Shown here piece by piece: positions 37,831 through 48,231 of a DNA stretch of 64,000 nucleotides. Location of the stretch: NCBI GenBank assembly GCA_965247985.1, contig OZ252051.1, forward strand, positions 252,240-316,239, in the 5' to 3' direction. Under the pieces are notes generated by a model, which saw nothing but the letters and a program-made list of their open reading frames with translations, made no database searches and was not told where the DNA came from. The stretch comes from an uncultured Candidatus Binatia bacterium (GTDB taxonomy: Bacteria > Desulfobacterota > Binatia > Bin18). The position numbers and the translations under genes are program-made. How positions within the stretch are numbered: the first letter of the stretch is position 1; each line of letters begins with the position of its first letter.

Positions 37831-39114
37831 TTAGCCACGGATATTTTTAAGCACCGTCCTGGCGGCACGTATGGTTTCTTGGATTTCGTCCTCGCTGTGC
37901 GCCAAGGAAATAAAGGCGGATTCGAATTGAGAGGGTGGAAGGTATATGCCCTGCTCAATCATACCGCGAAAGTAACTGGCGAACATTTTTGTATCGCTCT
38001 GAGTTGCCGTGTCATAGTCGCGCACGTGGTCTACCCCAAAGAAAACAGTGAACATCGAACCCATTTGGTTCACACAGGCTTTTATGTCAGTCTCACGAAT
38101 GACATTGCGCAGTCCCTTGGCCAGCATATCTCCAAGCATATTCAGCCTCTCATAGGCTCCAGCGGCGTGAACGAGCTTTAACGTTTCAATCCCAGCGGTC
38201 ACAGCCAACGGATTGCCAGACAGCGTCCCAGCTTGGTAGACCCCCCCCAATGGGGCAAGCACGTCCATTATCGCCGCTTTTCCGCCAACCGCGGCCAATG
38301 GGAGGCCACCGCCCACAACTTTCCCTAAGCAGGTGAGATCCGGATCGATGTTGTAGACCTCTTGAGCTCCGCCACGTGCTACACGGCAGCCGGTCATCAC
38401 CTCGTCAAAGATGAGCACAACTCCCAACTCCCGGGTGAGTTCTCGTAGACCTTCAAGGAAGCCTTGCTCGGGCGGCACGAGGCCCATATTTCCAGGAACA
38501 GGCTCCAGTATGACAGCCGCCACCCCCTCTGAATCAGCCTCTAGATACGCCCGTACACTAGAGAGGTCATTGTACTCCGCCACAAGCGTCAGGCTGCTAA
38601 ATGCCTCGGGAACGCCTTGACTGTCTGGGGTGCTGAGCGTAAGCGCACCGGACCCAGCTCTCACAAGAAGCGCGTCAGTATGACCATGATAGCAGCCAGA
38701 GAATTTTATGATCTTTGCGCGACCAGTATAGCCGCGAGCGAGACGCAGGGCGGTCATGGTCGCTTCTGTACCCGAGGAGGTCAGGCGGACTTTCTCGATT
38801 GACGGAACGGTCTGAGTAAGCGTTCTTGCGAGCTCAATCTCTTTTGCAGTTGGGGCACCAAAACTTGTCCCTTGTTTCACAACCCGCTCAAGTGCACCAA
38901 CAACCTGCGGATGAGCATGTCCTGCTATTAAAGGTCCCCAGGAGCCTACATAGTCTATATACTCGCGCCCATCCGTATCAGTGACGCGACACCCTTTCCC
39001 CCTGTGGATAAAAAGAGGGTCACCACCAACGGCCCGCCACGCACGAACCGGGCTGTTCACTCCACCTGGGATATATTTTTGCGCTTCATTAAAGAGTTTT
39101 TGCGATGTTGACAT
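37831..39114 (-). CDS. hemL: glutamate-1-semialdehyde 2,1-aminomutase
   Basis: 427-aa class III aminotransferase with a canonical HemL N-terminus. Confidence 0.95.
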   Translation of the reverse strand: MSTSQKLFNEAQKYIPGGVNSPVRAWRAVGGDPLFIHRGKGCRVTDTDGREYIDYVGSWGPLIAGHAHPQVVGALERVVKQGTSFGAPTAKEIELARTLTQTVPSIEKVRLTSSGTEATMTALRLARGYTGRAKIIKFSGCYHGHTDALLVRAGSGALTLSTPDSQGVPEAFSSLTLVAEYNDLSSVRAYLEADSEGVAAVILEPVPGNMGLVPPEQGFLEGLRELTRELGVVLIFDEVMTGCRVARGGAQEVYNIDPDLTCLGKVVGGGLPLAAVGGKAAIMDVLAPLGGVYQAGTLSGNPLAVTAGIETLKLVHAAGAYERLNMLGDMLAKGLRNVIRETDIKACVNQMGSMFTVFFGVDHVRDYDTATQSDTKMFASYFRGMIEQGIYLPPSQFESAFISLAHSEDEIQETIRAARTVLKNIRG

Positions 39115-39299
39115 CTACGTCTACCCACGTCCCAGTTCAGCCACTCCGGACTTTATCAAGCCAGACTTTCATTGAGATTTCCCCTGCTACCACCCGCCCA
39201 CAAGAGAGTCAAGATAAAAGAGATTTTCCCATCAGAATATCGAATTTTCCCGGAAATATGAGACTTTACTCTTTCTCCCGGTGTCCTCTTATAGAAACT

Positions 39300-39740
39300 G
39301 ATAACAAAATGTGATGCCTTCACCCCTTTTTTTTACGACCGACGTGCTCAGAAATGATTAAAAAAACAAATAGATACGAACCCCCTCTTTCAAGGCTATT
39401 ATTTTTCATATTATCACTTCGTGTTATGCATTGGATTTTATCTAGCGATATCCGCTGCTTTGGAAAAATCCTGATTTTTTTCTTGCGTTCTTTAGAGAAA
39501 AAGTTTAAGACGCAGGGGTCCTATCCTCTCTGGTCTGATAGATTTTAAGCGGCATATTGATTCGAGTAGATATGGGTCTTCTTCTCGCCCTCCTGACCAT
39601 GCGGTCGGTGAACGGGGCTTCCCCGGGGCAGAAGGCTAGACAGAGGGACAAGTGCGTGTGGATAACTCTTTTACCGGATGGACATTTCATTAGTTTGCAG
39701 AGGAAGTTATCGAGTTATCCACACCTGTGGATAACTTCAT
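39300..39740. promoter_or_regulatory. AT-rich tract plus three DnaA boxes upstream of dnaA (dnaA promoter / upstream origin half)
   Basis: TGTGGATAA 39657-39665, TTATCCACA 39715-39723, TGTGGATAA 39726-39734. AT-rich tract 39325-39520. Confidence 0.75.
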
Positions 39741-39765
39741 ACGTTGAGCGGCGTAGGGGTGTGGT

Positions 39766-41097
39766 ATGTATCGGGTGTGGGAACGGGTGTTGGGGATTGT
39801 TGAGGGAAAAGTAGGAAAGACGAATAGTGAAACCTGGCTAAAACCGATTCGCCCCCTTGGACTACAAGATGACACGTTCCATCTTGAGGTGCCAAGCGCG
39901 CTCTTTAAGGATTGGTTACTCAGTAATCTCGTCGGCCCTTTAGAAAACGCATTGACTGAGGTTCTTGGTCAGCCAACGCACCTCATATTGCATGTACAGG
40001 AAAAACCACAAGGAGAACTCTTCCTGGAAGAAGAGAAAAAACAAACAGCCGAGGAAAAGGAAAAAGGGGGAGGAAAGAGAAACGGACTTATTCAGAACTA
40101 TACATTTTCCTCCTTTGTTGTGGGTGGCGGTAATCAGTTTGCTCATGCCGCGGCTACGGCAGTCAGTAAACACCCAGGGAAAAGCTACAATCCGTTGTTC
40201 ATTTATGGAGGAGTTGGGTTAGGAAAAACTCATCTCATTAATGCTATTGGTCATGAGACATCGATAAAGAAAGGAAAGGACAATATTGTCTATCTTTCTT
40301 CAGAGTCTTTTACCAATGAATTGATTGTTCATTTACGAAAGAACCGGATGACGGAATTTAAAAATAGATTTCGTCGTGCGGATGTTCTCATTCTTGATGA
40401 TGTGCAGTTCCTGTCCGGTCGTGAGCGGACACAGGAGGAATTTTTTCACACCTTTAATTCTCTGCACGAGTCGAGTAAGCAGATTGTATTAACGTCCGAT
40501 AAATTTCCAAATGAGATTGGCGGGCTAGAAGAGCGGTTACGAAACCGTTTTGAATGTGGATTGATTGCTGACATTCAGCCACCCGACCTCGAGACTCGGG
40601 TAGCAATTCTGCAAAAGAAATCACGCGCAAAACGTATCTCCCTCCCCGACGATGTTGCCCTTTTTATTGCCTCTCATGTTACTTCAAATGTCCGAGAGCT
40701 TGAGGGCGGCCTGACGCGATTAGGAGCGCTGGCAGCCTTAAATCAGGCTGATATTACTGTCAACTTTGCACGCCAGGCCCTCCAAAACTTAGTCACAGCC
40801 AAGGAAAAGGAAGTCTCGATTGAGACCGTACAGAAAACTGTGAGTAAGTATTTTGGTGTCAGCGTTGCTGATATTACCTCAAAGAAACGGACAAAGCTGG
40901 TTTTGTTTCCAAGACAGATTAGTATGTTTCTCTGCCGCAAGCTCGCCGGCGCCTCCTACCCAATGATTGGAATGCGATTTGGAGGAAAAGATCATACTAC
41001 GGCTCTGCATGCCTGTACTACCATTGAAAAGCGGTTCAAAAAGGATGAAGAGCTTCGTGATATTATCAATAGAATAGAAATCATGATCTATGATTAG
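39766..41097 (+). CDS. dnaA: chromosomal replication initiator DnaA
   Basis: 443 aa with AAA+ Walker A GGVGLGKTHL and a C-terminal DnaA-box-binding domain. Confidence 0.97.
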   Translation: MYRVWERVLGIVEGKVGKTNSETWLKPIRPLGLQDDTFHLEVPSALFKDWLLSNLVGPLENALTEVLGQPTHLILHVQEKPQGELFLEEEKKQTAEEKEKGGGKRNGLIQNYTFSSFVVGGGNQFAHAAATAVSKHPGKSYNPLFIYGGVGLGKTHLINAIGHETSIKKGKDNIVYLSSESFTNELIVHLRKNRMTEFKNRFRRADVLILDDVQFLSGRERTQEEFFHTFNSLHESSKQIVLTSDKFPNEIGGLEERLRNRFECGLIADIQPPDLETRVAILQKKSRAKRISLPDDVALFIASHVTSNVRELEGGLTRLGALAALNQADITVNFARQALQNLVTAKEKEVSIETVQKTVSKYFGVSVADITSKKRTKLVLFPRQISMFLCRKLAGASYPMIGMRFGGKDHTTALHACTTIEKRFKKDEELRDIINRIEIMIYD

Positions 41098-41497
41098 ACT
41101 GTCTTTCCTGTGGATAACCTGTGGATAACCTGTGGATAACCTGTGGATAACCTGTGGATAACCTGTGGATAACCTGTGGATAACCTGTGGATAACCTGTG
41201 GATAACCTGTGGATAACCTGTGGATAACCTGTGGATAACCTGTGGATAACCTGTGGTCTGGGAAAAGTTATCCACAGGTATCCACAGGTATGGCGAAGTT
41301 ATCCACACCCCCTGTGGATAACTTTTCCCAGAATAAACAAATACTTAACCCACTTATCCACATATCCACAGGCCCTACTACTACTATTAGTACTTCTATA
41401 TATTAATAAGTAGTAGAATAAGTAGTAGTAGTAAGAAAAATGAGAATAAAAATCAGAGAAAAGACTATGGTTAATAAAAGGAAGGAAAGGGGGGTAT
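41098..41497. other. putative oriC in the dnaA-dnaN intergenic region
   Basis: 13-box array, plus boxes at 41268-41276, 41299-41307, 41313-41321 and 41354-41362, then an AT-rich DUE-like tract 41378-41490. Confidence 0.8.
41109..41249. repeat. 13 perfect head-to-tail DnaA boxes (TGTGGATAA) at an exact 11-bp period
   Basis: Unit cctgtggataa x13 followed by a degenerate copy tgtggtctg. Confidence 0.95.
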
Positions 41498-42646
41498 ATG
41501 GAATTCAGCGTCAGTAAGGAAGACCTCCTTCAGTGCCTATATCTAGTCCAGGGTGTTGTTGAAAAACGCTCCTCCCTCCCTATGCTCTCCCATGTTCTAA
41601 TTGAATCTAACTCCACGGAAGAGAAAGATGGAGGCATCTCTCTTGGAGCAACAGATCTTGAAATTGGAATCCGCCAACAATGTCAGGCAGAAGTAAAAGC
41701 GTCTGGATCAATGACAGCAGATGCAAGAAAGCTGTACGAGATCATTCGTGAGCTGCCGTCCGGTCAAGTCTATTTACGCTCAAGTGGAAACGGATGGGTG
41801 GAGGTCAAGAGCGGCAAGTCTCGGTTCCGGATCGCAAGTCTTGATCCCAAGGAGTTTCCCACAATAACAGCACAGAAAGAATCGAGCGAGGAACCTCCTG
41901 CTTCATCATTCCTATCTTTACCTGGACCAACCATGCGGGAGATGATTGAAAAAACCCTCTTTGCAACCTCACCGGACGAGACACGACTGAACCTCAGCGG
42001 TGTCTATCTTGAGACCTCGGCCGAGGGAAAGGTTCGCATGGTCGCCAGTGACGGTCACCGCCTCTCTCTTATAGAAAAAAAAATGGACGCCTCTCCTTTA
42101 CCCGATTGGCCGAGCGTTATCCTTCCGAAAAAGGGTCTGGTGGAAACACGGAAACTTCTTGAACGAAGCGAAGGAACAATAGAGGTCTCCCTCAGCGACT
42201 CGGTGATGAACCTCAAGAAAGAAACAACGGAACTTTTTATGCGTCTGATAGAAGGGGATTTTCCTGACTACCAGCAGGTCGTTCCAAAAGATCATACGCA
42301 CTGCGTTAAGTTTCTCCGAGATGAGCTCCTCTTTGCGCTCCGTCGGATTTTGATTCTGACAACAGAACGATCTCGGGGGGTGAAATTACAGTTCGGGAAG
42401 GACAAGATCGAGGTTTCAGTCAATACTCCAGACGTGGGGGAAGGGACAGAGGAGATTGCGGCTTCATACGCCGGAGATGGATTATCAATCGGGTTTAACG
42501 GGAGATATTTGACAGAGGCATTGAATGTCATAGATGAAGGAGATTCCGTCGTCCTTCTTCTCAAAGATGAGATGAGTCCTGGGCTCCTACAGACGGAAGA
42601 AAACAGTGAATTTTTATATGTCATAATGCCTATGAAAATAAACTAA
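41498..42646 (+). CDS. dnaN: DNA polymerase III beta sliding clamp
   Basis: 382 aa with three-domain clamp architecture. Confidence 0.95.
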   Translation: MEFSVSKEDLLQCLYLVQGVVEKRSSLPMLSHVLIESNSTEEKDGGISLGATDLEIGIRQQCQAEVKASGSMTADARKLYEIIRELPSGQVYLRSSGNGWVEVKSGKSRFRIASLDPKEFPTITAQKESSEEPPASSFLSLPGPTMREMIEKTLFATSPDETRLNLSGVYLETSAEGKVRMVASDGHRLSLIEKKMDASPLPDWPSVILPKKGLVETRKLLERSEGTIEVSLSDSVMNLKKETTELFMRLIEGDFPDYQQVVPKDHTHCVKFLRDELLFALRRILILTTERSRGVKLQFGKDKIEVSVNTPDVGEGTEEIAASYAGDGLSIGFNGRYLTEALNVIDEGDSVVLLLKDEMSPGLLQTEENSEFLYVIMPMKIN

Positions 42647-42708
42647 TAGAAAATCGTTTTAATAAAACCTATGGTTTACGTAAGATAGAGGAAATGTTAG
42701 AGTTTTAG

Positions 42709-45165
<2,457 letters not shown>

Positions 45166-45247
45166 TTCCACAATAACAGGCCAGTAGTGCTTATCTTATT
45201 TTAGGCATTCACGCTCCCCGTTGTAATCAAAAAGGAATCTCCTTTGT

Positions 45248-47764
45248 ATGGAAGACCATTCCGATTCCCACCCCCTTCCCTCCGTCAATATTGAACAAGA
45301 AATGCGTCAGTCCTACATGGACTACGCCATGAGTGTGATTATTGGTCGAGCATTGCCCGATGTCCGTGATGGACTGAAGCCTGTACACCGACGCGTCCTG
45401 TATGCCATGCACGACCTTGGAAATGAGTGGAACCGTTCGTATAAAAAGTCGGCCCGCGTCGTTGGGGATGTCATTGGGAAATACCACCCACACGGAGATT
45501 CGGCCGTCTATGACACCCTTGTCCGCATGGCGCAGGATTTCTCTCTTCGCTATCCGTTGATTGATGGTCAGGGGAATTTCGGTTCGGTCGATGGCGACCC
45601 TCCGGCGGCCATGCGCTATACCGAAGTCCGCATGACCCGAATCACTTCGGAATTGCTAGCCGATATTGACCGAGAAACCGTCAACTTTATACCGAACTAC
45701 GACGATACCAGCCATGAGCCTGCCGTTCTTCCCGGAAAATTCCCGAATTTATTGGTGAACGGCTCATCTGGAATTGCCGTGGGGATGTCAACCAATATTC
45801 CCCCTCACAATCTTGGCGAAGTGATTGACGCTCTCCTTGCGCTGATTGAGAACACGACGCTCGAAAATCGTGATCTCATGCAATACATCCCTGGTCCGGA
45901 TTTTCCCACTGGAGCGTTCATCCATGGACGATCAGGAGTACGGGACGCCTATGAAACCGGGCGAGGCATCGTTCAGATGCGGGCCCGGACATCTATCGAG
46001 GAAGACGAGAAGACCGGAAAAAGCCGGATTGTCGCCCACGAGATTCCTTATCAGGTGAATAAAGCCCGCCTGATTGAGCGTATCGCTGACTTGGTGAATG
46101 AGAAACGTATTACGGGAATCTCTGACCTGCGTGACGAGTCCGACAGAGAAGGGATGCGCATTGTTATCGAGCTGAAAAGAGATGTGGTCCCGAATATCAT
46201 TCTCAATCAACTGTATAAAATGACGCCCCTCCAGGATTCATTTGGAGTTATTCTTCTCGCCATTGTCGATGGCCGTCCTCTTCTCCTGACTCTTAGAGAC
46301 GCACTGCTTCACTTTCTTGAACACCGTCGAGAAGTGGTCAGACGCCGGATTGCCTTCGATCTGAAGAAGGCCGAGGAACGGCTCCACCTTCTTGAAGGGC
46401 TCAAAATCGCGCTGGACAGCCTCGATCCAGTGCTTCAGACCATCCGCCAAGGGCAGAACCCGGCCAGCGTACGACAGGCCCTTATGAGCCAATTTTCGCT
46501 GAGTGAGACGCAAGCTCAGGCCATTCTCGACATGCGCTTACAGCGCCTCACGCAGCTCGAACAAGGGAAGATCATTTCAGAGCATAGCGAAACGGTGAAA
46601 TTAATTGCTTCGTTACAAGGTATTCTGGCTAGCCCGGAAAAGATCGACGGAGTGATAAAAGAAGAACTGAAAGACCTTCATACCCGATTTTCTGATGGAC
46701 GGCGAACAGAAATCCTACCTGACAGCGCAGATCTCTCGGACGAAGATTTGATTGCTGAAGAAGATGTCGTTGTGACCATATCACACGCCGGCTACATCAA
46801 GAGAAACCCAGTGACTGAATACCGCTCGCAGCGTCGGGGAGGAAAAGGAGTTGTTGGAGCAACAACCCGAGAAGAAGATTTTGTTGAGCACATGTTCATC
46901 TCCTCTACGCACGCCTTTCTGTTATTTTTTTCCTCAATTGGTAAAGTGTATTGGGTAAAAGTCCATGAAATCCCTCAAGGCAGCCGAATTGCAAAGGGAA
47001 AAGCAATAGTCAACCTGTTGCCCCTGCAAGAAGGAGAGAAAATTTCGGCCTTTCTCCCTATCCGAGAGTTCCAAGACAACGGCTTCATTGTCTTTGCCAC
47101 CCGCAAAGGACAAGTCAAGAAAACGGCACTGATGTCGTATGCAAATCCGCGTCGTGGCGGAATCATTGCTCTCACTCTTGGGACCGACGATGAGGTGATC
47201 GGTGTCCAACTAACGGACGGTAAACAAGAGATCCTCCTTTCGACAAAAAACGGCAAAGCGATTCGATTTGCAGAAAAGGAAGTACGAGCAACTGGACGCG
47301 GCACCTCCGGCGTTCGAGGTATTAACCTGGAAGATGAGGATGCCGTGGTTTCCCTTGAAATCCTCAATCAGGAGGCCACCCTCCTCACTGTGTCGTCCCA
47401 GGGATATGGTAAGCGGAGCAGCATAGATGAATACCGGGTGCAGTCGCGCGGGGGGAAAGGGGTCAGTACGATGCGCACCACGGACAAGACCGGAGAGGTC
47501 TGTGGTGTTCGGCAGGTGAAGGAAGACGATGACTTGATGCTCGTGACGGACAGTGGCAAGATCATACGGCTTCGGATCGCTGAGTTACGGGTGATTGGCA
47601 GAAATACCCAAGGGGTGAAACTCTTTAACGTCGGTGCGGATGGATACGTCTCCAGTCTCGCACTGGTAGCAGAAGAGGAGGTAGAAGAGGAAGACGAGGC
47701 AAGGAAAGTCGAAAATACAGAAACGGTTCTCAATTCACACAGTATGGAGGAGCAACAGCTATGA
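45248..47764 (+). CDS. gyrA: DNA gyrase subunit A
   Basis: 838 aa with active-site Tyr region AAMRYTE and C-terminal beta-pinwheel repeats. Confidence 0.97.
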
Positions 47765-48231
47765 GTATTCAGGTCGGCCAAACGGCCCCGGATTTTACCC
47801 TCAAGACAAACAAGATGCAGGACTTTGCACTCGGCGAGGCAAAGGGGAAGAAGAATACCGTCATCCTTTTTGTTCCTTTTGCCTTTACCAGTGGTTGAAC
47901 GAAGGAATTGTGCTCGGTTCGAGACAATATCAACACCTTGCAGAATGACGATACTCAGGTTGTGGCCATTAGCGTGGATAGCCCGTTCTCGCTCGACGCG
48001 TGGGCGGCGAAGGAAGGCTATGATTTTCCACTGCTGAGTGACTTTAGTAAAGAAGTTTCTCAAGCGTACGGGTCGTTCTATGAAGACCTGATCGGTTTCA
48101 AAGGCGTCTCCAAACGTTCGGCCTTTGTCGTGGATAAGAGCGGGACGGTTCAGTACGCCTGGATTACAGAAGATGCCAGTCAACTTCCTGAACTTGATCC
48201 CATACGGGACTGTCTACAGCAGTGCGGCTAA
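47761..48231 (+). CDS. AhpE/BCP-type peroxiredoxin with in-frame TGA (candidate selenocysteine) at the peroxidatic-Cys position
   Basis: ATG overlaps the gyrA stop (ATGA). The translation reads ...[11 protein letters not shown][TGA 47896-47898][10 protein letters not shown]..., aligning with AhpE FFPLAFTGICQGELDQLRD. The track gives only a 107-aa fragment from TTG 47908. Confidence 0.65.
47906..47928 (+). promoter_or_regulatory. candidate bacterial SECIS hairpin
   Basis: aauugu(g)cucg GUU cgagacaau, beginning 8 nt after the UGA. 9-bp stem with one bulged G and a G/U-containing apical loop. Confidence 0.45.

What the first reader, a model, noticed from the sequence alone, without database searches (positions are those of the whole stretch)
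41098..41497. oriC with 13 perfect DnaA boxes phased at exactly one helical turn
The dnaA-dnaN spacer contains cctgtggataa repeated 13 times (41109-41249). This places 13 identical TGTGGATAA boxes head-to-tail at 11-bp spacing, all on one DNA face. At least four more boxes follow in both orientations, then an AT-rich DUE-like tract (41378-41490). Such a long perfectly phased array is unusual. It suggests a continuous DnaA filament or oligomer assembly, or a DnaA titration array (datA-like) fused to the origin.
Basis: seen in the sequence. Interest (0 to 1): 0.7.

Follow-up and report, generated by a model that had tools for sequence, protein, structure and literature searches.

The report
Hypervariable DnaA-box array in oriC
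The gap between the replication genes dnaA and dnaN of this uncultured soil bacterium (Candidatus Binatia) is a replication origin whose initiator-binding sites have expanded into a perfect 13-copy tandem repeat; the repeat is kept across the whole bacterial class, but its length varies from 4 to 20 copies between nearly identical strains.

Summary
Window 41107-41256 holds 13.6 perfect copies of CCTGTGGATAA, that is 13 consensus DnaA boxes every 11 bp. Four more perfect boxes and two one-mismatch boxes follow, then a tract of 22-28% GC, then dnaN.

It is not an assembly artefact. Independent long-read contigs from relatives carry the same array at the same place, with 4 to 20 copies. Strains whose flanks are 99.7-99.9% identical carry 9, 11, 12 or 16 copies.

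About 30 Binatia species (DnaA 63-97% identical) keep 4-14 same-orientation boxes at 11-12 bp right after dnaA. In the deeper branches the units differ from each other, so the array is old and maintained.

Next to dnaN lies a Bacillus-type unwinding module: TTATCCACA, tATCCACA, GGCC and eight DnaA-trios. The array points away from it, like the E. coli Right-DOR.

Arrays of four or more boxes occur in only 113 stretches among 185,579 species genomes. Arrays of eight or more are almost confined to Binatia.

"Exactly one helical turn, one face" is overstated. Eleven bp is the DnaA protomer step (2-bp interspace), not the 10.5-bp DNA repeat.

Whether the array acts as an oligomer scaffold or a titration sink is not settled. 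The GC-skew test is inconclusive in 64 kb.

Verdict: a new variant of a known kind, of moderate interest.

The parts
39657..39734 (.). Three perfect DnaA boxes upstream of dnaA: 39657(+), 39715(-) and 39726(+). They may be the dnaA autoregulation site or the second half of a bipartite origin.
   Evidence: and sequence. The same box arrangement lies upstream of dnaA in L197, whose DnaA is 78% identical.
39766..41097 (+). dnaA, the chromosomal replication initiator (443 aa).
   Evidence: TIGR00362, 523.7 bits against a cutoff of 343.9. The best solved relative is B. subtilis DnaA 8BTG, E 1e-130, with the domain IV DNA-binding motifs conserved.
41107..41256 (+). Tandem array of 13 full units of CCTGTGGATAA plus a partial unit CCTGTGG. 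That gives 13 consensus DnaA boxes, all in one orientation, with 2-bp interspaces.
   Evidence: The homologous array has 4-20 copies in relatives.
41257..41332 (.). Nested palindromic box cluster. The outer 22-nt perfect inverted repeat is 41257-41278 / 41311-41332. The boxes are 41268(-), 41278(-, one mismatch), 41299(-) and 41313(+). The inner palindrome is TTATCCACA-ccccc-TGTGGATAA.
   Evidence: As single-stranded DNA it folds with z = -6.2. It is conserved in relatives, with compensatory arm changes and ccccc/ggggg loop flips.
41354..41374 (-). The box pair of the unwinding module: TTATCCACA (41354-41362), then tATCCACA (41363-41370; as a 9-mer, 41362-41370 has one mismatch), then the GC spacer GGCC (41371-41374).
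   Evidence: It matches the published BUS box and spacer rules and is invariant across Binatia.
41375..41398 (-). Eight DnaA-trio-like triplets. On the + strand they read CTA CTA CTA CTA TTA GTA CTT CTA. On the bottom strand they read 3'-GAT GAT GAT GAT AAT CAT GAA GAT-5', with the middle A kept in all eight.
   Evidence: Sequence. The criteria (.A.){3,} and the 3'-GAT-5' consensus come from PMC8287927. The spacer from the conserved box is 12 bp; the published peak is 10-13.
41375..41490 (.). AT-rich presumed DNA unwinding element. It includes + strand TAG repeats (41411-41416 and 41423-41434) that mirror the trios.
   Evidence: GC is 0.22-0.28. Inverted repeats I2-I5 are listed. The pattern ccctactactacta...aagtagtagta is conserved across Binatia.
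41498..42646 (+). dnaN, the DNA polymerase III beta clamp.
   Evidence: TIGR00663, 277.3 bits against a cutoff of 137.65.

Best explanation
The 400-bp dnaA-dnaN spacer is the chromosomal replication origin of a Candidatus Binatia bacterium, or at least its unwinding half. Three more boxes lie upstream of dnaA.

Its order is: dnaA stop; 13 same-orientation consensus DnaA boxes with 2-bp interspaces; a nested palindrome with four more boxes; a Bacillus-type basal unwinding module (TTATCCACA, tATCCACA, GGCC, eight DnaA-trios); an AT-rich unwinding element; dnaN.

The array is the distal DnaA-assembly region of this origin. Each unit binds one DnaA through domain IV. The 11-bp step places neighbouring AAA+ domains at the distance at which DnaA protomers contact each other head-to-tail. 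This is the same geometry, and the same orientation relative to the unwinding element, as the five-box Right-DOR of E. coli oriC. Here, however, the array is built only of highest-affinity boxes and has been expanded by replication slippage.

Because consensus boxes bind DnaA whether it carries ATP or ADP, the array should be permanently loaded. It would act as a local store and scaffold of initiator next to the unwinding module. As a by-product, it would be a sink that is doubled as soon as the origin fires.

The exact copy number is not critical, so slippage makes it hypervariable.

What is shown: the anatomy, its conservation, the variability and the rarity. What is inferred: DnaA occupancy, protomer contacts and the role in initiation.
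For: 1. Anatomy. There are 13 perfect boxes at 11 bp, and all 21 perfect boxes of the window lie within 2.4 kb around dnaA. The BUS criteria are met, with 8 trios 12 bp from the conserved box. The AT-rich tract has 22-28% GC. The genes run dnaA-dnaN-gyrB-gyrA.

2. The array is real. Independent long-read contigs (up to 4.86 Mb, 9-182x coverage) carry the same array with 4, 9, 10, 11, 12, 13, 16 and 20 copies. A contig whose ptg...l name suggests a HiFi assembly (an inference from the name only) has 6 copies, against 8 in other samples with the same DnaA. Short-read scaffolds break at the array or have N gaps in it.

3. Hypervariability. Strains whose flanks are 99.7-99.9% identical have 9, 11, 12 or 16 copies. 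Two contigs of one sample have zero differences over 2.5 kb to the right of the array, yet carry 16 and 9 copies.

4. Selection. About 30 Binatia species (DnaA 63-97% identical) keep 4-14 same-orientation boxes right after dnaA, spaced only 11 or 12 bp. In the deep branches the units are heterogeneous (TGTGAATAA, TGTGCATAA; spacers CC, CCC, GT, GC), so the array predates recent slippage. One lineage has a 21-bp period that alternates strong and degenerate boxes.

5. Geometry. For same-orientation boxes, a 2-bp interspace gave maximal cooperative ATP-DnaA dimer formation in T. maritima. E. coli has five same-orientation boxes in each half of its DOR (PMC10316083).

6. The DnaA protein is of the ordinary Bacillus type with conserved domain IV motifs.
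Against: No experiment exists, and the organisms are uncultured.

The GC-skew test is inconclusive in the 64-kb window. The global cumulative minimum is at 5.7 kb, with only a local minimum near 40 kb. Mean skew is -0.004 to the left and +0.023 to the right, and gene orientation is mixed.

Copy numbers from 4 to 20 are tolerated, so most units may be dispensable.

Tandem duplication by itself yields constant spacing and orientation, so these features are weaker evidence for protomer contacts than they look.

The array points away from the unwinding element.

One Binatia lineage (DnaA 78% identical, 7.1-Mb contig) has dnaA with neither dnaN nor an array downstream.

The orientation rule for box versus trios rests on the papers' notation and on my memory of the B. 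subtilis sequence. I could not confirm it from text.
Confidence: 0.7

Rival explanations
1. The array is a neutral, slippage-prone satellite. One or two functional DnaA boxes at the edge of oriC have been amplified by replication slippage. Units beyond the first few have no selected role, and the array persists only because it does no harm.
For: The units in the window lineage are perfectly identical, and copy number runs from 4 to 20 among strains with 98-99.9% identical flanks. An inverted copy of the unit next to the array (13-nt perfect complement at 41267-41279) offers 13 alternative hairpin registers that would promote slippage.
Against: An array of at least four phased boxes is kept at the same position over DnaA divergence down to 63% identity, with heterogeneous units in the deep branches. 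All spanning long-read contigs with dnaA-dnaN synteny have four or more strong boxes. Similar CC-spaced arrays arose independently in other phyla, on a plasmid and on viral contigs.
Confidence: 0.2
2. The array is a built-in initiator titration sink, like datA or the B. subtilis DnaA-box clusters. Its main role would be negative. It sequesters 13-20 DnaA molecules and, because it sits inside the origin, it is duplicated at the instant of firing. That lowers free DnaA and prevents re-initiation.
For: All units are highest-affinity consensus boxes, which by established knowledge bind both ATP- and ADP-DnaA. The array sits inside the origin. Variable copy number is tolerated, as expected of a buffer.
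Against: Pure titration needs neither constant orientation nor 11-12-bp spacing, yet both are kept even where the units have diverged. No E. coli-type IHF consensus, which datA requires, is present in the spacer. This rival is not exclusive of the best explanation.
Confidence: 0.25
3. The array is a DnaA-dependent transcriptional roadblock between dnaA and dnaN. DnaA bound to it would stop or modulate read-through from dnaA into the origin and dnaN, coupling clamp expression or origin transcription to the DnaA level.
For: The array starts 10 bp after the dnaA stop codon. No intrinsic terminator-like site is found on the + strand between dnaA and dnaN, and no sigma-70-like promoter lies in the spacer. 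That DnaA-box complexes can block RNA polymerase is known from E. coli; I recall this and did not check it here.
Against: One or two boxes suffice for a block. Thirteen phased boxes and class-wide retention of four or more are not explained. The consensus scans are weak evidence in a non-model phylum.
Confidence: 0.1
4. The array is an assembly artefact, that is, a collapsed or expanded repeat.
For: Short-read assemblies do break at the array or leave N gaps in it (L008, L012, L015-L020). A 3-copy version in a 9-kb contig (L010) may be collapsed.
Against: More than a dozen independent long-read contigs from different samples and projects carry the array at the same position. The array is only 143 bp, far shorter than long reads.
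Confidence: 0.03

Closest known systems
E. coli oriC DnaA-oligomerisation region, especially the Right-DOR (R4, C1, I3, C2, C3)
   Same: It has same-orientation boxes forming a head-to-tail ATP-DnaA oligomer. The two halves have opposite orientation (PMC10316083). The array here has the R4-type orientation, pointing away from the unwinding element (the orientation of R1 and R4 is recalled from the E. coli sequence). The 2-bp interspace matches.
   Different: E. coli has five boxes per half, mostly low-affinity and ATP-DnaA-specific, fixed in number, with IHF and Fis sites. Here there are 13 (4-20) identical highest-affinity boxes, the number is hypervariable, and there is no IHF consensus.
Bacillus subtilis oriC and its basal unwinding system (BUS)
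   Same: The location between dnaA and dnaN, with further boxes upstream of dnaA. The tandem boxes, a roughly 4-bp GC spacer, DnaA-trios (3'-GAT-5') and an AT-rich tract. The published criteria are met. B. subtilis DnaA is the closest solved relative.
   Different: To my knowledge, B. subtilis oriC has scattered boxes and no long phased tandem array. The helicase-loading partners DnaD and DnaB were not examined here.
Thermotoga maritima oriC
   Same: A compact box cluster beside a DUE that carries TAG repeats. A 2-bp interspace is optimal for same-orientation boxes (PMC10316083).
   Different: It has five 12-mer boxes including an inverted one, and no tandem expansion.
DnaA titration loci (E. 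coli datA, B. subtilis DnaA-box clusters, Streptomyces box cluster)
   Same: They are clusters of high-affinity boxes that can sequester DnaA (established knowledge, recalled).
   Different: They lie outside oriC, have irregular spacing, and datA needs IHF. Here the array is inside the origin, strictly periodic, and no IHF consensus was found.
Bacterial VNTR and contingency loci
   Same: A perfect short tandem repeat whose copy number differs between near-identical strains.
   Different: Known contingency repeats sit in coding regions or promoters of surface or restriction genes. Here the repeat unit is the binding site of the replication initiator, inside the origin.
Plasmid iterons and Vibrio chromosome-2 RctB arrays
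   Same: They are helically phased direct repeats of an initiator-binding site at an origin, and they serve both initiation and copy-number control.
   Different: Iterons are 17-22 bp and bind a plasmid Rep protein. Here the units are 11 bp and bind the chromosomal DnaA.

Membership tests
DnaA-dependent chromosomal origin (oriC) | A cluster of DnaA boxes well above chance | tested here: met
   There are 21 perfect boxes in 2.4 kb and none in the other 61.6 kb. With up to one mismatch, 41 matches are observed against 9.5 +/- 3.3 expected.
DnaA-dependent chromosomal origin (oriC) | An AT-rich unwinding element next to the boxes | tested here: met
   GC is 0.22-0.28 over 41370-41489, against about 0.55 for the window. 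This is composition only; unwinding was not shown.
DnaA-dependent chromosomal origin (oriC) | Linkage to dnaA/dnaN | tested here: met
   It lies between dnaA and dnaN, which are followed by gyrB and gyrA. The synteny is kept in relatives.
DnaA-dependent chromosomal origin (oriC) | The replicon-wide GC-skew switch lies at the locus | tested here: inconclusive
   Only 64 kb of about 4.48 Mb is available. There is a local cumulative minimum near 40 kb, but the global minimum is at 5.7 kb and the skew is weak.
DnaA-dependent chromosomal origin (oriC) | Autonomous replication, or DnaA-dependent unwinding | not testable with these tools
   This needs an experiment.
Basal unwinding system (BUS; Richardson/Pelliciari/Murray) | A DnaA box with at most 2 mismatches within 0-16 bp of the trios | tested here: met
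   The one-mismatch box ends at 41370 and the trios start at 41375. The perfect box ends at 41362, giving a 12-bp spacer; the published peak is 10-13.
Basal unwinding system (BUS; Richardson/Pelliciari/Murray) | At least three consecutive NAN trios, with 3'-GAT-5' preferred near the box | tested here: met
   There are eight triplets with a central A on the bottom strand. The first four are 3'-GAT-5'.
Basal unwinding system (BUS; Richardson/Pelliciari/Murray) | A tandem second box, with the upstream box closer to consensus, and a GC-rich spacer | tested here: met
   The sequence reads TTATCCACA then tATCCACA then GGCC. It is invariant across Binatia.
Basal unwinding system (BUS; Richardson/Pelliciari/Murray) | DnaA-ATP-dependent strand separation | not testable with these tools
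   This needs an experiment.
E. coli-type DOR array | Same-orientation boxes with a 2-bp interspace | tested here: met
   There are 13 boxes, all on the + strand, with 11 bp from start to start.
E. coli-type DOR array | Low-affinity, ATP-DnaA-specific sites flanked by a high-affinity anchor | tested here: not met
   All 13 units are the highest-affinity consensus TTATCCACA.
datA-type DnaA inactivation/titration locus | An IHF-binding site within the cluster | tested here: not met
   There is no WATCAANNNNTTR match in 41098-41497. This is the E. coli consensus, and the IHF specificity of Binatia is unknown.
datA-type DnaA inactivation/titration locus | Located outside oriC and stimulating DnaA-ATP hydrolysis | tested here: not met
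   The array lies inside the dnaA-dnaN origin spacer. Hydrolysis cannot be tested here.
VNTR / hypermutable tandem repeat | A perfect tandem repeat with copy-number polymorphism among close strains | tested here: met
   Copy number is 4-20 among strains with 98-99.9% identical flanks.
VNTR / hypermutable tandem repeat | Copy number changes a phenotype (contingency behaviour) | not testable with these tools
   This needs growth or initiation measurements.
Coding or RNA repeat | An open reading frame kept across variants, or a known RNA family | tested here: not met
   The unit is 11 bp and the copy-number differences are not multiples of 3. Every + strand frame reaches a TAA stop within 33 nt (sequence). 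Rfam gives no hit better than E 0.4.

The most novel reading that the evidence does not exclude
The array may be a heritable, fast-mutating rheostat of replication initiation. Slippage would continually generate cells with 4 to 20 or more permanently DnaA-loaded sites inside oriC. Copy number would then set how much initiator must accumulate before the adjacent unwinding module fires, and how strongly the origin is silenced right after firing. That would make it a contingency locus acting on the cell cycle itself. On this reading, DnaA also forms an exceptionally long (over 200 bp) regular oligomer on double-stranded DNA. This would be a natural periodic substrate for solving the structure of the dsDNA-bound DnaA filament.
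Probability: 0.15. Interest if true: 0.8.

Novelty: new variant of a known kind. Interest (0 to 1): 0.5.

Why it matters
Origins are usually described as fixed, species-specific arrangements of a handful of DnaA boxes. Here a whole bacterial class keeps a strictly periodic, same-orientation run of highest-affinity boxes inside oriC, and its length changes faster than point mutations accumulate.

If the units are occupied as expected, nature has provided a graded series, from 4 to 20 protomers, for two questions. How many DnaA molecules does an origin need or tolerate? Is the initiator stored at the origin a help (scaffold) or a brake (titration)?

The array is also an ideal regular template for structural work on DnaA bound to double-stranded DNA. 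The geometry of that complex is still inferred rather than seen.

On the practical side, the array explains why short-read assemblies of these genomes break at dnaA. It could also serve as a strain-typing marker for Binatia.

Tried and rejected
- GC skew and gene-orientation switch within the window gave too weak a signal, and 64 kb is too short to place the origin.
- The exact look-up of the window's own DnaA in the assembly index found nothing on record. The cluster look-up gave no name or accession. The organism was instead identified through the genome scan.
- Promoter and terminator consensus scans of 38900-41700 found nothing above the shuffle expectation, and nothing in the spacer.
- The Rfam search of 38900-41800 returned only chance-level miRNA hits. 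An RNA element is rejected.
- A coding repeat is rejected. The 11-bp unit, copy differences that are not multiples of 3, and a stop codon in every + strand frame rule it out. The 75-aa minus-strand ORF is an artefact of the repeat.
- No IHF consensus was found in the spacer.
- The hairpin potential of the AT-rich tract is not significant (z -0.94).
- I tried to confirm the B. subtilis box-trio orientation from paper text, but the sequence is only in figures.
- I tried to fetch the annotation of the Pantoea plasmid pSOE2, but it is not in the plasmid collection.
- Literature searches for Binatia oriC, and for tandem or variable DnaA-box arrays, found no description. The library holds only open-access papers and preprints, so this is not proof of absence.
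- ORF lists for three of the metagenome contigs with arrays of eight or more boxes (L209, L217, L220) showed few long ORFs, and I did not pursue them.

Full report
**Observation**

Tandem Repeats Finder reports one array at 41107-41256 with period 11, 13.6 copies, 100% identity and unit CCTGTGGATAA. A pattern search places 13 perfect TGTGGATAA boxes on the + strand from 41109 to 41249, each 11 bp after the last (sequence).

Downstream come perfect boxes at 41268(-), 41299(-), 41313(+) and 41354(-). One-mismatch boxes lie at 41278(-) and 41362(-).

All 21 perfect boxes of the 64-kb window fall between 39003 and 41362. With up to one mismatch there are 41 matches, against 9.5 +/- 3.3 in shuffles.

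The flanking ORFs are dnaA (39766-41097) and dnaN (41498-42646), followed by gyrB and gyrA. hemL and ATP-synthase genes run divergently upstream. The tract 41370-41489 has 22-28% GC in a window that averages about 55%.

**Is the array real?**

The window's DnaA has relatives at 96% identity on long-read metagenome contigs of up to 4.86 Mb. Twenty loci encoding two of these proteins were fetched. Every contig that spans the spacer carries the same CCTGTGGATAA array directly after the dnaA stop codon. The copy numbers are 4, 9, 10, 10, 10, 11, 11, 12, 13, 16 and 20.

Short-read scaffolds have N gaps inside the array, or they end in it. A 3-copy version on a 9-kb contig may be collapsed.

For a second DnaA lineage (90% identity), a contig whose ptg...l name suggests a HiFi assembly (an inference from the name only) has 6 copies, while two other samples have 8. 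The array is therefore not an artefact of one assembly. Only the exact number 13 in this assembly remains unverified at read level.

**Hypervariability**

Outside the array, contigs of the 96% group are 98.3-99.9% identical over about 6.8 kb. Pairs that are 99.7-99.9% identical still differ in copy number: 11 against 16, 11 against 12, 16 against 9. Two contigs from one sample have no difference at all over 2.5 kb to the right of the array, yet carry 16 and 9 copies.

The array thus changes faster than point substitutions accumulate, as expected for slippage in a perfect repeat. An inverted 13-nt copy of the unit just downstream (41267-41279) can pair with any register of the array. This may favour slipped intermediates; that is an inference.

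**Organism and rarity**

A scan of one genome per species (185,579 species) for four or more TGTGNATAA boxes at 11-bp spacing returned 113 stretches. The titles identify the window's relatives as Candidatus Binatia bacteria.

About 31 of the stretches, from roughly 30 species, are of Binatia type: their DnaA is 63-97% identical to the window's, or only the dnaN side matches. In all of them the array sits right after dnaA and before dnaN, with 4-14 boxes.

The remaining roughly 80 stretches are scattered over TM6/Dependentiae (often two facing 4-box arrays), Aquificota, Armatimonadota, Deinococcota, Thiotrichales, Neisseriaceae and others. Most have only 4-6 boxes, and several also lie between dnaA and dnaN.

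Arrays of eight or more outside Binatia were seen only on a 3.8-kb Candidatus Pantoea edessiphila plasmid and in one Holosporales MAG. Sixty-three viral contigs have arrays of 4-6 boxes. Fourteen metagenome contigs have arrays of 8-16 boxes with no recognisable dnaA or dnaN on the contig.

Long phased arrays are therefore rare in general but typical of Binatia.

**Conservation and selection**

Aligning the spacers by eye over the whole DnaA identity range shows one architecture:

- the dnaA stop codon;
- a same-orientation array;
- one to three reverse boxes;
- the palindrome TTATCCACA-c5/6-TGTGGATAA;
- about 31 bp;
- TTATCCACA tATCCACA GGCC CTACTACTA...;
- an AT-rich tract with AAGTAGTAG repeats;
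- dnaN.

In lineages at 63-76% DnaA identity the array units are not identical. They include TGTGAATAA, TGTGCATAA and TGTGGATAA, with interbox CC, CCC, GT, GC or CT. Start-to-start distances are nevertheless only 11 or 12 bp.

One lineage has five 21-bp units, each a strong box plus a degenerate box. Another has eight 12-bp units followed by four 11-bp units.

So an array of phased, same-orientation boxes is old and maintained. The perfect homogeneity in the window's lineage reflects recent slippage or homogenisation.

One counter-example exists. A lineage with 78% DnaA identity on a 7.1-Mb contig has dnaA followed by an unrelated 462-aa ORF, with neither array nor dnaN.

**The unwinding module**

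Next to dnaN the window reads TTATCCACA (41354-41362), tATCCACA (to 41370), GGCC (41371-41374), then CTA CTA CTA CTA TTA GTA CTT CTA (41375-41398). On the bottom strand these triplets read 3'-GAT GAT GAT GAT AAT CAT GAA GAT-5', with the central A kept in all eight.

This satisfies the published search rules for the basal unwinding system (PMC8287927):

- a box with at most 2 mismatches within 16 bp of the trios;
- an upstream, better-matching tandem box;
- a GC spacer of about 4 bp;
- at least three NAN trios, with 3'-GAT-5' preferred next to the box;
- a spacer of 10-13 bp from the conserved box (here 12 bp).

The closest solved protein is B. subtilis DnaA from the BUS cryo-EM complex (8BTG, E 1e-130), and the domain IV motifs are conserved.

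The strand relation of boxes to trios follows the papers' notation and my memory of the B. subtilis sequence (CCACAGGCCCTACTA...). I could not confirm it from the text.

**Orientation and geometry**

The 13 array boxes read TGTGGATAA on the strand where the module's boxes read TTATCCACA. The array therefore points away from the unwinding element and faces the reverse boxes at 41268-41307.

This mirrors E. coli oriC. There, five same-orientation boxes of the Left-DOR face five opposite boxes of the Right-DOR (PMC10316083). The array has the Right-DOR orientation (the orientation of R1 and R4 relative to the DUE is from memory).

The 11-bp step is a 2-bp interspace. In T. maritima this interspace gave maximal ATP-DnaA dimer formation on same-orientation boxes.

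It is not the DNA helical repeat. At 10.5 bp per turn each unit adds about 17 degrees, so 13 boxes sweep about 220 degrees. The period is better read as the DnaA protomer step.

**Mechanism**

I consider it most likely (0.7) that the array is the distal DnaA-assembly region of a BUS-type origin. It would be permanently loaded because its boxes are consensus, and it would be able to support head-to-tail contacts. It would serve as a local store and scaffold of initiator. A sink effect on duplication would come as a by-product.

The rivals are as follows:

- **Neutral satellite (0.2).** Supported by the tolerance of 4-20 copies. Opposed by class-wide retention of arrays with diverged units.
- **Pure titration sink (0.25; not exclusive of the best explanation).** Consistent with consensus boxes at the origin. 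It does not explain the constant spacing and orientation, and no IHF consensus is present.
- **Transcriptional roadblock (0.1).** Consistent with the lack of a terminator after dnaA. It does not require 13 boxes.
- **Assembly artefact (0.03).** Largely excluded by the independent long-read contigs.

A coding or RNA role is rejected. The unit is 11 bp, copy differences are not multiples of 3, and there is no Rfam hit.

One consequence is worth noting. A helicase moving leftward from the unwinding element must pass about 19 DnaA-bound sites. This problem was recently addressed for E. coli (the title and abstract of PMC11952115, listed).

**What remains open**

The cumulative minimum is at 5.7 kb with only a local minimum near 40 kb. 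Mean skew shifts from -0.004 left of dnaA to +0.023 right of dnaN, and gene orientation is mixed.

DnaA occupancy, cooperativity and any effect of copy number on initiation are all inferred.

**Novelty**

Open-access literature searches found no description of a Binatia origin, or of a tandem, copy-number-variable DnaA-box array in an origin. This is not proof of absence.

All the elements are known: DnaA boxes, the 2-bp interspace, the BUS and dnaA-dnaN origins. What is new is the degree and the behaviour: a class-conserved, strictly periodic, all-consensus array inside oriC that behaves as a VNTR.

I rate it a new variant of a known kind, with interest 0.5.

Noticed in passing
window 41257-41332; L003, L011, L082, L109, L117: A perfect 22-nt inverted repeat (41257-41278 / 41311-41332) encloses the palindrome TTATCCACA-ccccc-TGTGGATAA. 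In relatives the outer arms change in a compensatory way (tctgggaaaag/cttttcccaga against tcttgaaaag/cttttcaaga). The 5-6-nt loop is flipped from ccccc to ggggg in several strains and species, which looks like a hairpin-loop inversion polymorphism.
   Followed up: partly
window 41375-41434: The presumed unwinding element holds two mirrored sets of trinucleotide repeats: CTACTACTACTA next to the boxes, and AAGTAGTAG...AAGTAGTAGTAGTAA about 35 bp further on. They are conserved across Binatia. They may offer DnaA-trios on both strands. The hairpin they could form is not significant (z -0.94).
   Followed up: partly
window 39657-39734 and 39003-39011: Three perfect DnaA boxes lie just upstream of dnaA, and the same arrangement is seen in a relative with 78% DnaA identity. 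This suggests autoregulation or a bipartite origin. One more perfect box lies inside hemL.
   Followed up: partly
L198 2922-3242 (contig of 4.31 Mb, DnaA 66% identical): The array has a 21-bp period: TGTGGATAA-ct-CGCGAATAA-t repeated five times. It alternates a consensus box with a degenerate box.
   Followed up: no
L096 (OZ220487.1): The array has eight units with a 3-bp interspace (12-bp period) followed by four units with a 2-bp interspace.
   Followed up: no
L197/L207 (7.09-Mb contig, DnaA 78% identical): Here dnaA is followed by a 462-aa ORF without a Pfam hit, and then by unrelated metabolic genes. There is no dnaN and no array, so the dnaA-dnaN synteny is broken in this lineage.
   Followed up: partly
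L031 (Candidatus Pantoea edessiphila plasmid pSOE2, 3.8 kb); L032/L122 (Holosporales MAG): A tiny symbiont plasmid carries two arrays of 7-9 CCTGTGGATAA units. A Holosporales MAG has 11 CCTGTGCATAA units at two contig ends. These are the only long arrays found outside Binatia in the genome scan.
   Followed up: partly
L134-L196 (IMG/VR viral contigs): Sixty-three viral contigs carry 4-6 DnaA boxes at 11-bp spacing, often with the same CC interbox dinucleotide. They may be phage origins or DnaA decoys.
   Followed up: no
L208-L221 (JGI metagenome contigs): Fourteen contigs carry 8-16 phased DnaA boxes with varied interbox dinucleotides and no recognisable dnaA or dnaN on the contig. Of the three contigs whose ORFs were listed, two show few long ORFs, so their context is unknown.
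   Followed up: partly
L025, L033, L047, L059, L063, L087, L105 and others (TM6/Dependentiae and unnamed Pseudomonadota MAGs): Pairs of 4-5-box arrays face each other about 100-150 bp apart and are not next to dnaA. The layout recalls the two facing DOR halves of E. coli.
   Followed up: no
window 39000-48000: The dnaA-dnaN-gyrB-gyrA block has 44-50% GC, about 5-10 points below the rest of the window (53-61%).
   Followed up: no
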